Assembly (NCBI GenBank): GCA_016219925.1
Contig: JACRJU010000013.1
Location: 102,566 to 166,565 of the forward strand
Source: Candidatus Uhrbacteria bacterium
GTDB taxonomy: Bacteria; Patescibacteriota; Patescibacteriia; UBA9934; GWF2-40-263
Reading direction: 5' to 3'
DNA length: 64,000 nt
The stretch's first letter is position 1, and each line of letters opens with the position of its first letter. A program made the translations under genes and the position numbers. Below the pieces are notes generated by a model that made no database searches, was not told the DNA's origin, and was given only the letters and a program-made list of their open reading frames with translations. Below are positions 20,809-64,000 of the stretch, piece after piece.

Positions 20809-20898
20809 AACAAGCCCGCCGTCCGTCATCCTCCATTTGACAGACGGTATTTTTTCCTGCAAAAAGGTTCTTGGGTAACCCCACTTCTGGAGGAGATC

Positions 20899-22851
20899 AT
20901 GGAGATTTCAGGGAAAAAAGCGTTTCTCCCACCGAGGGAACTCGTCCGCGGGTCCAATATCCAAACGCTCGGCGCATGGGCTGATGAGTGGATGAATGCC
21001 ACCCTGACCGACCCGGACGGCTTTTGGCTGGACGTGGCGCGTCGTCGCGTGATTTGGCGCAAGGAGCCAACCATCGGCCTCGAAGGCGACTTCCACTCGG
21101 CCCGCCGTAAACCCCTGCGCTGGTTCGGCGACGGCACGCTCAACGTGACCGAGACTTGTCTCGATCAACACCTCCAGAAGCACGGCGATAAGACCGCGAT
21201 CATCTGGGAGGCGGATGAGCCGGGCACCGGTTGTACGCTCACCTATCGTGAGCTCCACGAGAAGGTGTGCGCCGCGGCGTGCATGCTCTACCTGCTCGGC
21301 GTTCGGCGCGGCGACCGCGTCGTGATTTACATGGGCATGGTGCCCGAGGCCGCGATCGCGATGCTCGCCTGCGCGCGCATCGGCGCGATCCACTCGGTGG
21401 TCTTCGGCGGCTTCTCCGCCGAGTCCCTGCGTGATCGCATCATCGACTGTGGCGCGAAGCTCGTGATCACCCAGGACGAGGGACTCCGCGGTGGCAAGAT
21501 CGTGCCGCTCAAGCGTACGTGCGACCAGGCGCTGGTCGACCTCGGGCAAGTCGAGCGCGTGGTGGTGTTCAAGCGCACCAAGGGCGAGGTGCCCTGGACC
21601 GAGGGTCGCGATGTCGAATGGAAGCTCTCGGACGCGACGTACTTCCCGGCCGAGGTGATGGAGGCGGAAGATCCGCTCTTCATCCTCTACACGAGCGGTT
21701 CGACCGGCAAGCCCAAGGGCCAGGTTCACACCTGCGGCGGGTATCTCGTCTACGCGAGCTACACGCACGAGACGGCCTTCGATCTGCGAGACAACGACGT
21801 CTACGCCTGCGTGGCAGACGTCGGCTGGATCACCGGCCACACCTACATCGTCTACGGTCCGCTCGCGAACGGTGCGACGACCCTCCTGTTCGAGTCCACC
21901 CCGACCTATCCGGATGCGGGGCGGTACTGGGACATGGTGGATCGCCACAGTATCACCGTGTTCTACACGGCGCCCACGGCCATCCGCGTGCTCGCGGCGG
22001 CCGGCGACCAGTACGTCTTTCCCTACGACCGTTCGACCCTGCGCGTGCTCGGCACCGTGGGCGAACCCATCAACCCCGACGCCTGGATGTGGTACTACAA
22101 GATCGTCGGTGGCGAGCGGTGTGCAATTGTCGACACCTGGTGGCAGACCGAGACCGGCGGCATCATGATCTCCGGCTGTCCGGCCGCGACGCCCATGATC
22201 CCGGGTTCGGCTACTCTTCCGCTCCCGGGGATCCTGCCCGTGATCGTTGGTGCTGATGGCAAGCCCATCCGCAGCCCGGGAACGGGACGGCTCTGCATCG
22301 CAGAACCCTGGCCTGGTATGACCCGAACCATCTGGCGCGATCACGAGCGCTACGCGGCGACCTACCTCGAAGAGGTGCCCGGGATGTACTTCACGAGCGA
22401 TGGATGCTCTCGCGACAAGGCCGGCAACCACACGATCAGCGGTCGGGTGGATGACGTCATCAACGTCGCCGGCCACCGCATGGGAACGGCCGAGTTCGAA
22501 TCCGTGCTGACCGCAGACCCGTTGGTGGCGGAATGTGCGGTTGTCGGCTTCCCGCACGAGGTGAAGGGACAGGGCGTGTGCGCCTTCGTCGTGCTCATCA
22601 GCACGACGGTTCCTGAAGACCTCGCGGCACGGCTCAACGCGCTTTTGCGCGACAAGATCGGCGCGCACGCGAAGCTCGACGTTCTGCACATCGTCCCGGG
22701 TCTGCCCAAGACCCGCTCGGGAAAGTGCATGAGGCGTATCTTGCGCGCCATGGCCAAAGGAGAAGACAACTTTGGCGACATCTCCACGCTCGCCGACCCG
22801 AGCGTGGTGCAGGCTATCCACGACATCGTGCGGGCCCAGCCTTCTTCGTGA
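20899..22851 (+). CDS. acs: Acetyl-CoA synthetase (GC-rich cassette)
   Basis: YTSGSTGKPKG, DTWWQTETGG, GRVDDVINVAGHR, LPKTRSGK; GGAGG SD at 20889. Confidence 0.95.
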   Translation: MEISGKKAFLPPRELVRGSNIQTLGAWADEWMNATLTDPDGFWLDVARRRVIWRKEPTIGLEGDFHSARRKPLRWFGDGTLNVTETCLDQHLQKHGDKTAIIWEADEPGTGCTLTYRELHEKVCAAACMLYLLGVRRGDRVVIYMGMVPEAAIAMLACARIGAIHSVVFGGFSAESLRDRIIDCGAKLVITQDEGLRGGKIVPLKRTCDQALVDLGQVERVVVFKRTKGEVPWTEGRDVEWKLSDATYFPAEVMEAEDPLFILYTSGSTGKPKGQVHTCGGYLVYASYTHETAFDLRDNDVYACVADVGWITGHTYIVYGPLANGATTLLFESTPTYPDAGRYWDMVDRHSITVFYTAPTAIRVLAAAGDQYVFPYDRSTLRVLGTVGEPINPDAWMWYYKIVGGERCAIVDTWWQTETGGIMISGCPAATPMIPGSATLPLPGILPVIVGADGKPIRSPGTGRLCIAEPWPGMTRTIWRDHERYAATYLEEVPGMYFTSDGCSRDKAGNHTISGRVDDVINVAGHRMGTAEFESVLTADPLVAECAVVGFPHEVKGQGVCAFVVLISTTVPEDLAARLNALLRDKIGAHAKLDVLHIVPGLPKTRSGKCMRRILRAMAKGEDNFGDISTLADPSVVQAIHDIVRAQPSS

Positions 22852-22869
22852 GCTGGGCTTTTTTATTTT
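22834..22869 (+). terminator. Intrinsic terminator overlapping the acs stop
   Basis: gcccagc..gctgggc followed by TTTTTTATTT. Confidence 0.75.
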
Positions 22870-22917
22870 AAAAAGGCTCTGTGTGCAGAGGGTTCTCAAG
22901 TGCGCTATACTCTTTTT

Positions 22918-23010
22918 ATGAAAAAGAAAGCCTTTCGCACTTTTTGGATGGTGATTGCCATCCTCGTTATTCTTTCGATGGTGATGTTTATGTTTCAGTT
23001 GGGGTACTAA
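22918..23010 (+). CDS. 30-aa small membrane protein
   Basis: MKKKAFRTFWMVIAILVILSMVMFMFQLGY: basic N-terminus plus one TM; TATACT -10-like hexamer just upstream. Confidence 0.6.
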   Translation: MKKKAFRTFWMVIAILVILSMVMFMFQLGY

Positions 23011-23020
23011 GAAGGAGCTT

Positions 23021-61979: not shown

Positions 61980-62042
61980 ATCAAGCGCACGGAGAATATC
62001 ACATTCAACGAAAATTGTCACCCGTGATAGGATAAGGTCGTT

Positions 62043-62501
62043 ATGTCTAAACACACGATGGAACACACCTTTACTATGATTGCCTCTGTCTATTTGGTTT
62101 TACAAAATGCGCGCGGGGAAGGGCTCTTGTTGAAACGGAAAAATACGGGATTCAAAGATGGAGAGTATGGGCTCCCCGCAGGACATGTGGATGGAGGAGA
62201 AACATTGAGCGAAGCGATGCGTCGCGAGGCGCGAGAGGAAATTGGGATTGAGATTGCCCCAAAGGATTTGACATTAGCTCATGTGATGCATCGAAATTGT
62301 GGCGATCATGAGCGGTTGGATTTTTTCTTTACGTGTCATCGGTATCGAGGAGAAGTGCGTAATTGTGAAGAAGGAAAGTGTGAAGAATTACGGTGGTGTT
62401 CCCTTGATGTCCTTCCTGAAAAGACGATCGACTATTACGTTCAAGCATTTTCCGCGATCAAGCACGGAGTGTTGTATGGCGAGTTTGGGTGGATTGATTG
62501 A
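62043..62501 (+). CDS. NUDIX hydrolase
   Basis: PAGHVDGGETLSEAMRREAREEIG Nudix box; start may instead be at 62076. Confidence 0.9.
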   Translation: MSKHTMEHTFTMIASVYLVLQNARGEGLLLKRKNTGFKDGEYGLPAGHVDGGETLSEAMRREAREEIGIEIAPKDLTLAHVMHRNCGDHERLDFFFTCHRYRGEVRNCEEGKCEELRWCSLDVLPEKTIDYYVQAFSAIKHGVLYGEFGWID

Positions 62502-62559
62502 CACCGAGACGCGTGGCACGTATACTTTCGCCAGCCAACGGATGGCTCTGGAGGACTTC

Positions 62560-63219
62560 ATGTCCAACGTGACCGTGATCGATCATCCGCTCGCGCGCGC
62601 CGCTCTGACGGTATGCCGCGACGCCAACACCCCCAGCGGTGGACCATTCGCCCGCCAGATGGCGCGCGTCGGACGCGTCCTGGCCCCGTACGCTCTGGCT
62701 GGCATCGAGACCGACGCCAAGCGTGTCCAAACCCCGCTTGAGGTCGGCCACGATGGCGTGATCCAGCACGGCAAGGTCGCGCTGGTTCCCATCCTGCGGG
62801 CTGGCAAGGCGCTCGAACAACCGTTCGCCGACCTGCTCGAGCGATACTGCGTCTGGGACCTGGGTCTACGTCGCAACGAGCAGACGCTCAAGCCCGAGCA
62901 GTACCTCAACCGCATCCCCGAGCGTGTGCCCGCCGTTGTCCAGCACACGATCGTGCTGGAGATCATGCTCGCGACCGGCGGCTCGAGCGTCCACGCGGTG
63001 GACATTCTCAAGGAGCGCGGAGCGACGAAGATCACGTTCGTGTGCGTCGTTAGCGCGCCCGAAGGCATCCGCAAGCTGTCGGAAGCGCATCCGGATGTCG
63101 ACATCTTCACCGTCGCCGTTGACGAACGCCTCACCACCATGGAGGATGCGTTCCCTCCCGGCTACATCGTTCCGGGACTGGGCGATGCCGGCAGGCGCCT
63201 CAACGACTCGGCCGAGTGA
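62560..63219 (+). CDS. upp: Uracil phosphoribosyltransferase (GC-rich cassette)
   Basis: IDHPL, VPILRAG, RNEQTL, MLATGGS, GYIVPGLGDAG. Promoter TTGACA(62498)-17-TATACT, GGAGG SD. Confidence 0.93.
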   Translation: MSNVTVIDHPLARAALTVCRDANTPSGGPFARQMARVGRVLAPYALAGIETDAKRVQTPLEVGHDGVIQHGKVALVPILRAGKALEQPFADLLERYCVWDLGLRRNEQTLKPEQYLNRIPERVPAVVQHTIVLEIMLATGGSSVHAVDILKERGATKITFVCVVSAPEGIRKLSEAHPDVDIFTVAVDERLTTMEDAFPPGYIVPGLGDAGRRLNDSAE

Positions 63220-63246
63220 TCAACTCGTTCGGCCCCCTTCGACCCC

Positions 63247-64000
63247 TCAACGTGAGGGATTTTTTGTTGGCCGATGTCGGCTGTGGCCACTTTGGCCACT
63301 GCGTCCTTGGCGATGGAACGGCCGTCCGCCAGAGCGATAAGCCCGCGGGGGGCGTTCAGGAACAGAGGCGGGAGCTTCGACGAATCGTTCGAGCGTTTCA
63401 CCGGTGTGTGATTTTACCGAGAGCCGCATGTTGATAAGCCGTTCAATTTGTCTGATGTCGTTTTTTTGTTCTGGAACCGCAAAGGAAATCGCTTTCCCAG
63501 CGCGACCAGCTCGACCAGTGCGTCCAATGCGATGCACATAGTCTTCCGTGTGATCCGGCAGATCAAAGTTCAACACCAATTCGATCCCTGTCACATCAAT
63601 CCCGCGAGCGGCGATATCCGTTGCAACAAGCACGCGGTACGCGCCGGATTTGAATCCCTCAAGGGCCTGCTTTCGCTGGGCAAGCGATCGGTTGGAGTGC
63701 AGTTCAGCTGAAGTGTGTCCCATCTGGCGCACGGCGCGGGCGATTTTTTTTGCTCCATGCTTGGTGCGACTAAAAACCAAAATCGTTCCGCGATACTCGC
63801 CCAGCACTTTTTGCAATAGACTCAATTTATCCGCTTTGGACACGATAAAAACTTCTTGATCCACATGCTCGGCTGCGGTGCCAGATCGCGCGACCTCAAC
63901 ACGCAAAGGTTGTTTCATATATTTTCGCGCGATTTGGGCAATCTGTTCTGGCATGGTCGCGGAAAACAAAAGCGTCTGTCGTTCCGTTGGAACGCCAGTC
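63247..64000 (-). CDS. DEAD-box RNA helicase (5' part lies outside the window)
   Basis: FSAT motif III, LVFSRTK, ATDIAARGID, HRIGRTGRAG. Confidence 0.93.
   Translation of the reverse strand, partial: TGVPTERQTLLFSATMPEQIAQIARKYMKQPLRVEVARSGTAAEHVDQEVFIVSKADKLSLLQKVLGEYRGTILVFSRTKHGAKKIARAVRQMGHTSAELHSNRSLAQRKQALEGFKSGAYRVLVATDIAARGIDVTGIELVLNFDLPDHTEDYVHRIGRTGRAGRAGKAISFAVPEQKNDIRQIERLINMRLSVKSHTGETLERFVEAPASVPERPPRAYRSGGRPFHRQGRSGQSGHSRHRPTKNPSR

What the first reader, a model, noticed from the sequence alone, without database searches (positions are those of the whole stretch)
20837..63266. A family of self-contained, GC-rich, SD-led single-gene cassettes scattered through an SD-less backbone
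SEEN: nine solitary genes have strongly C/G-ending codons and lack the long A/T runs typical of the backbone: acs 20899, ORF 28460, OPT 29735-31660, GT 40882, YARHG-like 43918-44559, GGDEF 44980-45783, PgsA-like 51541, PNP 53895-54769 and upp 62560. Seven carry a TTGAC[A/G/T]-N17 (N16 for PNP)-(-10) promoter, with -35 at 28400, 31728, 44632, 45850, 51468, 54832 and 62498. acs has only TTGACA at 20837 with a poor -10, and the GT promoter is unclear. All have GGAG/GAGGT SD sites and a hairpin plus T-run just after the stop. Backbone genes (pilM, gatC, rpoD, dnaX, nrdJ, lepA) start after SD-less, pyrimidine/A-rich leaders. The units abut host genes with almost no spacer: the upp -35 overlaps the NUDIX stop, and the OPT, PNP and upp terminators overlap the neighbours' stop codons. 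No integrase, attC site or transposase is visible. INFERENCE: these could be promoter-to-terminator transcription units captured one at a time from a high-GC donor by an undescribed route (e.g. pilus-mediated uptake or RNA-templated insertion). Alternatively they form a second expression class using SD-dependent initiation.
Basis: partly seen in the sequence, partly recalled or inferred. Interest (0 to 1): 0.85.

Follow-up and report, generated by a model that had tools for sequence, protein, structure and literature searches.

The report
Symbiont genes written for host ribosomes
About a tenth of the genes of this tiny host-dependent bacterium are old stand-alone units with their own promoter, ribosome-binding site and terminator; related bacteria whose ribosomes have lost the sequence that reads that site still keep such units, so these genes are likely translated by the host cell's ribosomes.

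Summary
The nine GC-rich units are real, at the stated coordinates, and belong to a genome-wide class (about 11% of genes) in an Uhrbacteria-family (Patescibacteria) genome: solitary genes with a -35/-10 promoter, Shine-Dalgarno (SD) site, TAG/TGA stop, one-way terminator and almost no A/T runs, in a leaderless, SD-less backbone. They are not fresh imports: orthologues are syntenic, synonymous sites are saturated, and the GC offset persists while following each genome's own GC. Ribosomal-protein genes lack the bias. Key test: in another Patescibacteria order, 53 of 53 readable 16S tails lack the anti-SD, yet 79 of 91 genomes carry promoter-SD-ATG units at ribosomal spacing, one encoding a type IX secretion signal. 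Class members also lack their partners at home (PgsA-like gene in 30 of 73 family genomes, CdsA in 0 of 73). Best reading (about 50%): these genes are translated by host ribosomes after mRNA, DNA or cytoplasm transfer; the route is unknown and no RNA data exist. The scan saw this class before on other DNA, reading it as morons or unexplained; I found no paper describing it.

The parts
20837..22864 (+). acs unit: -35 at 20837 (poor -10), SD, acetyl-CoA synthetase CDS 20899-22851, hairpin overlapping the TGA, T-run at 22859
   Evidence: absent between lepA and recJ in relatives; sister to Myxococcota acs
28400..28727 (+). 79-aa orphan unit: -35 at 28400, SD, CDS 28460-28699, terminator whose T-run (28720) runs into the extended -10 of the next, leaderless gene
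   Evidence: weak homologue in G004
29683..31728 (-). OPT transporter unit: -35 at 31728, SD, CDS 31660-29735, T-run at 29688
   Evidence: same site in G002 at 71% nt identity, GC3 0.85; 9 of 162 order genomes, GC3 above flanks in 7 of 7 scored
40775..41950 (+). GT-A-like glycosyltransferase unit: weak promoter candidate at 40775, weak SD, CDS 40882-41895, T-run at 41945
   Evidence: G002 has a different GC-rich SD-led gene at this site
43890..44632 (-). secreted protein with weak YARHG likeness: -35 at 44632, SD, CDS 44559-43918, T-run at 43895
44947..45850 (-). GGDEF protein (GGEEF site intact): -35 at 45850, SD, CDS 45783-44980, T-run at 44952
   Evidence: orthologue upstream of dnaG region in G002; no PilZ or EAL found in G000
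51468..52312 (+). PgsA-like CDP-alcohol phosphatidyltransferase unit: -35 at 51468, SD, CDS 51541-52290, T-run at 52306
   Evidence: in 30 of 73 family genomes, GC3 above flanks in 24 of 26 scored; CdsA in 0 of 73
53858..54832 (-). purine-nucleoside-phosphorylase-like unit, frameshifted near 54110: -35 at 54832 (16-nt spacer), SD, CDS 54769-53895, T-run at 53864
62498..63266 (+). upp unit: -35 at 62498 overlapping the NUDIX stop, SD, CDS 62560-63219, T-run at 63260
28720..28746 (+). example of the backbone grammar: extended -10 without -35, 8-9 nt before the ATG (leaderless); also before pilM 32602, prepilin peptidase 34570 and the cation ATPase 55245
9423..11972 (+). type IV coupling-protein-like ATPase (backbone class), a candidate part of a delivery route; link to the units not shown

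Best explanation
The units are a long-resident second gene class whose messages are likely translated by the ribosomes of the host cell on which this bacterium lives, while the backbone is read by its own, largely leaderless machinery. Shown: the class exists, is old, gains and loses single genes, keeps its SD, promoter, terminator and avoidance of A/T runs through saturating divergence, and persists in lineages whose 16S cannot pair with an SD. Inferred: the symbiont's RNA polymerase makes short monocistronic mRNAs (promoters look native); these mRNAs, or the DNA, or shared cytoplasm, reach the host; host-side selection (SD pairing, survival of A/U-poor RNA, host codon preference) holds the composition at a fixed offset from the backbone; the products (transporters, nucleoside salvage and catabolism, lipid and c-di-GMP enzymes, kinases, lipoproteins) would rewire the host. 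The delivery route is unknown; the Patescibacteria type IV secretion system is only a candidate. For G000 itself, whose anti-SD is intact, the host reading is carried over from the shared grammar.
For: (1) Class grammar in G000: SD 57 of 69 vs 141 of 637 (the latter at the chance level of the same rule); TAA 6 of 68 vs 311 of 637; -35 promoter 31 of 64 vs 44 of 361, leaderless extended -10 0 of 64 vs 46 of 361, terminator 50 of 63 vs 88 of 311, solitary 58 of 70 vs 178 of 655. (2) Not expression level: 25 genes of the ribosomal-protein cluster average GC3 0.51, EF-Tu 0.56. (3) Maintained: G000-G011 four-fold kappa 0.083 vs 0.093 in the backbone, yet four-fold GC 0.83/0.50 vs about 0.61/0.30; PgsA-like and OPT GC3 track flanks (r 0.84, 0.91) but stay above. 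(4) Readerless SD: 53 of 53 readable 16S tails in the order of G587 lack CCTCC; 79 of 91 genomes carry the unit pattern, reversed control 1 match, 47 of the 53 among them; five genomes give 105 sites at 4-9 nt, 15 at 12-17 nt (mostly the same SD with a second ATG), 1 for a CCTCC control; flanking core genes have SD in 0 of 14, A/T runs are rarer than in flanks in 14 of 15; SD is not more paired than in shuffles (0.40 vs 0.42 unpaired, n=72) and extends to A at -1 (47 of 72; background 0.35); EamA orthologues of G587 and G762 (41% identical, four-fold identity 0.29) both keep the whole layout; no CsrA in 5 genomes. (5) Products that need another cell: T9SS sorting domain in anti-SD-less G702; receiver domain in G763; CdsA 0 of 73, PlsY, PilZ, EAL not found in G000.
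Against: No RNA, protein or imaging data; no nucleic-acid export to a host is known in Patescibacteria, and relaxases are absent from most of their T4SS loci (PMC12102498, passages). G000's own anti-SD is intact, so its ribosomes could read these genes. Abundant native proteins without SD (cold-shock, RRM, L7/L12, HU, a 1250-aa surface protein) shift part-way along the same axis, so an in-cell force in this direction exists. The force depends on the next codon's first base (0.74 +/- 0.06), so it is not plain tRNA matching. The class is patchy: none in the 100-kb sample of G077; 0-2 pattern hits in other anti-SD-less genomes (G600, G660, G681, G613, G616, G629, G577); G763's SD-led genes are not GC-shifted; in G495 (anti-SD intact) an SD-led unit encodes HU, a housekeeping protein. 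No single donor: upp hits are mixed. The nucleoside catabolism genes also make sense inside the symbiont. Conservation of SD inside anti-SD-less lineages rests on one saturated pair and three close pairs. PgsA-like proteins score below the TIGR00560 cut-off, so the substrate is not certain.
Confidence: 0.5

Rival explanations
1. An in-cell second programme: the units are strongly transcribed at one life stage (attachment, dispersal) and translated inside the symbiont, by SD pairing where the anti-SD survives and by an unknown protein or RNA reader elsewhere; A/U-poor sequence is selected for mRNA stability, and some products are exported as protein effectors.
For: Native-looking promoters; intact anti-SD in G000 and in all 13 same-class or closer genomes (G000 included) with a readable tail; abundant native genes shift the same way; frame-independent avoidance of A/T runs; an SD-led HU in G495.
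Against: Needs an unknown reader that happens to require the canonical motif at ribosomal spacing; no CsrA; SD not held in hairpins; ribosomal genes and EF-Tu unbiased; polytopic membrane proteins and a T9SS substrate are poor candidates for protein injection (inference).
Confidence: 0.27
2. Moron-like flux: units circulate among Patescibacteria (and their phages) and are swapped often, so SD and GC bias are relics of a reservoir with intact anti-SD and higher GC.
For: Patchy presence, different genes at the same site, OPT at different loci; many short orphans; high-GC relatives exist (G005 backbone GC3 0.87).
Against: Syntenic orthologues with saturated synonymous sites keep the offset; GC3 follows the resident genome (r 0.84-0.91); units share the resident's avoided words (GCWGC O/E 0.37 and 0.19 in G000 and G011 units); the G005 backbone does not avoid A/T runs beyond codon usage (O/E 1.10 vs 0.44).
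Confidence: 0.12
3. One reading: whole transcription units recently captured from a high-GC donor and awaiting amelioration.
For: acs is sister to Myxococcota/Bradymonadia acs and sits in an otherwise empty site; MopE-like and Dictyostelium-type repeats among class members.
Against: No homologue above 68% (acs), 69% (OPT, itself from relatives) or 55% (upp); long branch; native promoters; saturation.
Confidence: 0.05
4. A local mutational or gene-conversion bias raises GC in these transcription units without selection.
For: GC1 and GC2 rise too; both strands shift alike at four-fold sites; 3' UTRs are C-rich (360 nt).
Against: No spill-over into neighbours (GC3 0.536 vs 0.520); the axis differs from the between-genome GC axis (r -0.43, -0.32) but repeats across four genomes (r 0.60-0.72 with G000); it does not explain SD, stop codons or terminators.
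Confidence: 0.06

Closest known systems
Phage morons (Juhala/Hendrix concept; recalled, no call)
   Same: Single extra gene with its own sigma-70 promoter and intrinsic terminator between conserved genes; patchy presence.
   Different: On a cellular chromosome, about 11% of genes, GC-richer not AT-richer, old and vertically kept, and present where the cell's ribosome cannot read the SD.
Agrobacterium T-DNA and phage host-adapted genes (recalled, no call)
   Same: Genes carried by one entity whose expression signals and composition suit another cell's machinery.
   Different: Units are dispersed, with no border repeats seen; promoters look native; transfer is not shown; the recipient would be a bacterium.
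Horizontally acquired islands and the amelioration model (recalled)
   Same: Atypical GC3; some coding sequences of foreign origin.
   Different: No amelioration despite synonymous saturation; no integrase or transposase family among 61 window proteins.
Highly expressed gene class under translational selection (recalled)
   Same: C-ending Phe, Tyr, Asn, Ile codons strongly preferred; strong SD.
   Different: Ribosomal proteins and EF-Tu are outside the class; the bias depends on the next codon's first base.
Anti-SD-less Parcubacteria subgroup (PMC9297842, passages read)
   Same: Loss of the anti-SD confirmed here in a whole order.
   Different: The passages assume SD helices do not form there and do not mention a retained SD-led gene class.
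Patescibacteria T4SS related to monoderm conjugation machinery (PMC12102498, passages read)
   Same: A coupling-protein-like ATPase lies in the window with two paralogues elsewhere.
   Different: Substrate unknown; relaxase mostly absent; no link to the units tested.

Membership tests
Phage moron | own promoter and terminator, inserted between conserved genes | tested here: met
Phage moron | lies in a phage or prophage genome | tested here: not met
   flanks are lepA, recJ, dnaG, rpoD, gatCA, pilM
Phage moron | recent addition of foreign composition | tested here: not met
   saturated orthologues, offset tracks resident genome
Integron gene cassette | promoterless gene | tested here: not met
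   seven of nine have a full promoter
Integron gene cassette | attC site and integron integrase | tested here: inconclusive
   no integrase family among 61 window proteins, only tRNAs in Rfam; no attC model was run, rest of genome not scanned
Recent genomic island | close donor and little synonymous divergence | tested here: not met
Highly expressed gene class | ribosomal proteins and EF-Tu share the bias | tested here: not met
T-DNA-like delivered genes | expression signals suited to the recipient, not the carrier | tested here: met
   met in the anti-SD-less order; not separable in G000, whose anti-SD is intact
T-DNA-like delivered genes | border or oriT sequences and a relaxase | not tested
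   no relaxase search in G000; no shared border seen by eye in flanks
T-DNA-like delivered genes | transfer to and expression in the host cell | not testable with these tools
   no RNA holder listed

The most novel reading that the evidence does not exclude
Patescibacteria run two genomes in one chromosome: a leaderless backbone for themselves and a dispersed set of SD-led monocistronic genes whose mRNAs (or DNA) are delivered into the host bacterium and translated there to reprogram its transport, nucleotide, lipid and signalling functions. The class can be read from sequence alone, so its proteins and codon style would point to the hosts and host targets of thousands of uncultured lineages.
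Probability: 0.5. Interest if true: 0.95.

Novelty: categorically new. Interest (0 to 1): 0.86.

Why it matters
How Patescibacteria exploit their hosts, and what their type IV secretion system carries, are open questions (PMC11665869, passages read). If the reading holds, it is gene expression across a cell boundary between bacteria, and a simple pattern yields an effector catalogue and host clues (Myxococcota-like here; a T9SS-bearing host for G702). It would also mean that metabolic reconstructions credit these cells with enzymes that work in the host, and that GC-based transfer calls mislabel old resident genes. Even if wrong, an SD kept without an anti-SD requires an undescribed reader.

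Tried and rejected
No RNA holder listed. The search for related loci with the PgsA-like protein returned one weak unrelated hit. DNA-level junction mapping failed because relatives are only about 70% identical. No 10-11-bp A/T periodicity in either class. Internal SD-like words are avoided about equally in both classes (O/E 0.72 vs 0.82), so that test does not separate readers. Of 31 genomes first flagged as anti-SD-less by a strict pattern, I read 25 tails; most had only a changed base before an intact core and were set aside; G671 (wobble-compatible tail) was left out of the counts; six were not read. The EamA search found 2 of 151 genomes. ESM Atlas gave only weak YARHG look-alikes. The 1.84-billion-protein search of the PgsA-like protein gave 114 unnamed hits and no taxa. 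Gene calls come from my own caller (828 genes), with some wrong starts; seven doubtful calls were dropped from most class counts, and the 17 'class' pairs include three native genes (bS21-like, cold-shock, MraZ-like). Relatives were sampled (40-460 kb each), not read whole. Trees used top hits only and have no proper outgroup. Chimera, recent import, expression-level bias and regional GC bias were rejected for the reasons given under rivals.
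Full report
Setting. The window is G000:C10:102566-166565, in an 874-kb, 15-contig genome rated 93% complete. A LepA from a genome of the same family is named Candidatus Uhrbacteria by its source, so this is a Patescibacteria (CPR) genome. Its 16S tail keeps the anti-SD.

Observation. GT has only a weak promoter and SD. PNP carries a one-base frameshift near 54110 that the run's contig also shows; contigs of run X1, possibly the source, cross the junctions in 39001-57000 at even depth.

A genome-wide class. With my own gene caller (828 genes), GC3 splits into components at 0.52 and 0.79, the upper holding 11% of 735 genes. 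Upper against lower class: SD of -7 kcal/mol or better 57 of 69 vs 141 of 637, the latter about what 4.3 candidate starts at 7% each give by chance; TAA 6 of 68 vs 311 of 637; TTGAC-type promoter 31 of 64 vs 44 of 361 unit-leading genes; extended -10 within 4-14 nt of the start 0 of 64 vs 46 of 361; terminator 50 of 63 vs 88 of 311, with an A-tract for two-way use in 1 vs 38; solitary 58 of 70 vs 178 of 655. Class promoters share the T-rich spacer and TG of the genome's tRNA promoters (33 vs 9 sites). Ribosomal-protein genes and EF-Tu have backbone codon usage. Of 68 class proteins scanned, named ones include hpt, upp, PNP, deoB, deoC, two aldehyde dehydrogenases, an aminotransferase, a GlpT-like MFS, a second CDP-alcohol transferase, a Ser/Thr kinase, thioredoxin, an M23 peptidase and MopE- and Dictyostelium-repeat proteins; most have no family.

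Old and maintained. acs is absent after lepA in 29 of 29 relatives' loci, and recJ follows directly in 12; sites are sometimes filled by other SD-led GC-rich genes. But OPT sits at the same site in G002 at backbone-like 71% identity, and the PgsA-like gene is in 30 of 73 family genomes, with GC3 above its flanks in 24 of 26 scored and correlated with them (r 0.84); OPT 7 of 7, r 0.91. In 460 kb of G011 (backbone GC3 0.32) the class recurs in 36 of 382 genes. Among 298 reciprocal pairs, four-fold sites are equally saturated in class and backbone (kappa 0.083, 0.093), yet four-fold GC is 0.83/0.50 vs about 0.61/0.30. Samples of G002, G030, G040, G139 and G179 show the class, G052 weakly, G077 not; G005 is too GC-rich to tell. 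No close donor exists: acs 63-68%, with all 11 taxon-named hits among the 120 listed being Myxococcota, Deltaproteobacteria or Bradymonadia; upp at most 55%, mixed taxa; OPT about 60% to Elusimicrobia and Myxococcota. acs branches as a long sister to the Myxococcota-like clade, apart from other CPR acs (top hits only).

Nature of the force. The codon shift repeats across four genomes (r 0.60-0.72 with G000), differs from the between-genome GC axis (r -0.43, -0.32), is largest for Phe, Tyr, Lys, Ile, Asn, and does not spill into neighbours. It grows when the next codon starts with A/T. A/T runs are avoided beyond codon usage in class genes (O/E 0.44 in G000, 0.66 in G011, 0.31 in G002; weaker in G040 and G179, 0.87 and 0.83) but not in backbones (0.94-1.19). 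This points to selection on the nucleic acid of the transcribed unit, not only on tRNA matching. Some abundant native genes shift part-way.

Who reads the SD? PMC9297842 (passages) reports anti-SD loss in a Parcubacteria subgroup. A strict pattern (TTGAC, 18 N, TAnnnT, 15-45 N, GGAGG, 4-9 N, ATG) hits 173 of 251 phylum genomes, reversed controls near zero, 10 hits in G000. G476 and G587 have lost the anti-SD yet have 7 and 11 hits, some on the contig of the 16S gene. In the order of G587, 53 of 53 readable tails among 91 genomes lack CCTCC (read by eye), and 79 of 91 carry the pattern, up to 42 times; 47 of those 53 do. Spacing and motif controls in five genomes: 105 sites at 4-9 nt, 15 at 12-17 nt, 1 with CCTCC. 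In 30 loci, flanking core genes have SD in 0 of 14, and the SD-led gene has fewer A/T runs than its flanks in 14 of 15 scored and higher GC3 in 11 of 15. At 72 sites the SD is not more paired than in shuffles and is preceded by A in 47; this speaks against an earlier scan note that read these SDs as folded regulatory leaders. One saturated orthologue pair (41% identity) and three close pairs keep -35, -10 and SD while leaders diverge (the close pairs are from two genomes whose 16S tail is not assembled). CsrA was not found in five genomes. Against: several other anti-SD-less genomes have 0-2 hits, and G763's units are not GC-shifted.

Products out of place. An SD-led gene of anti-SD-less G702 ends in a T9SS sorting domain; T9SS is confined to Bacteroidota and kin (recalled; I could not search G702 for it). 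CdsA is in 0 of 73 family genomes (control 13 of 14), and PlsY, PilZ and EAL were not found in G000, while PgsA-like and GGDEF genes are class members. Lipobox-like starts: 7 of 70 vs 7 of 666 (crude rule).

Mechanism. Most likely (0.5) the units are translated by host ribosomes. Shown: class, age, maintenance, readerless SD. Inferred: transcription in the symbiont, passage of mRNA (or DNA, or shared cytoplasm), host-side selection, host rewiring. A coupling-protein-like ATPase lies in the window with two paralogues, but relaxases occur in only 103 Patescibacteria genomes (PMC12102498, passages), so classical conjugation is unlikely. The main rival (0.27) is an in-cell stage-specific programme with an unknown reader; moron flux, recent capture and mutational bias are less likely.

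Novelty. It works like phage morons in layout and like T-DNA in logic, but fails moron, cassette, island and high-expression membership tests. Ten literature searches (listings only, three with no paper) showed no description of this class or of host translation; passages of three papers were read, no supplements, and subscription papers are not covered. The scan noted the class before, in this genome and in other Uhrbacteria and Parcubacteria, mostly as morons or unexplained; those notes are not independent evidence.

Noticed in passing
window 54107-54113 (- strand): PNP-like gene has a one-base frameshift in a G run, also in the run's contig: a pseudogene or slippage site.
   Followed up: partly
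window 28720-28746; also before genes at 32602, 34570, 55245: Backbone genes start 8-9 nt after an extended -10 without -35 (leaderless); a unit's terminator T-run can double as the T-tract of the next promoter.
   Followed up: partly
G000 and G011 coding sequences: GCWGC and CTCAG/CTGAG are depleted in both classes (O/E 0.2-0.4), suggesting methylation or restriction sites; GCWGC is not depleted in G002 units, G040 or G005.
   Followed up: no
L082:570-6082 and L035: deoC, aldehyde dehydrogenase and deoB form a class operon in G000; in G139 deoC and the dehydrogenase sit beside acs, all SD-led and GC-rich.
   Followed up: partly
G011:C9:77433-78629: An SD-led PilM paralogue (25% identical to the backbone PilM of G000) belongs to the class.
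   Followed up: no
L091:477-1433: Class protein whose N-terminus recalls the Leu/Gln-rich start of sigma-54 (recalled), followed by a nucleotidyltransferase-like part.
   Followed up: no
L083:10333-14700: Two MopE-repeat genes share a near-identical long leader of about 100 nt.
   Followed up: no
matches: In the anti-SD-less order many unit leaders begin with CAG or TAG about 6-8 nt after the -10: a possible shared 5' end.
   Followed up: no
L289:274-1080 (G476): SD-led LAGLIDADG-like protein with an HTH, next to an SD-led thymidine kinase, on the 16S contig.
   Followed up: no
G000:C14:65706-65782: tRNA-Arg has a GCG anticodon and no ACG copy was found.
   Followed up: no
L115-L110 locus set, G009/G011 contigs, window 33808-33841: A 25-30 nt element near window 33810 matches more than 30 places in G011: a dispersed repeat.
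   Followed up: no
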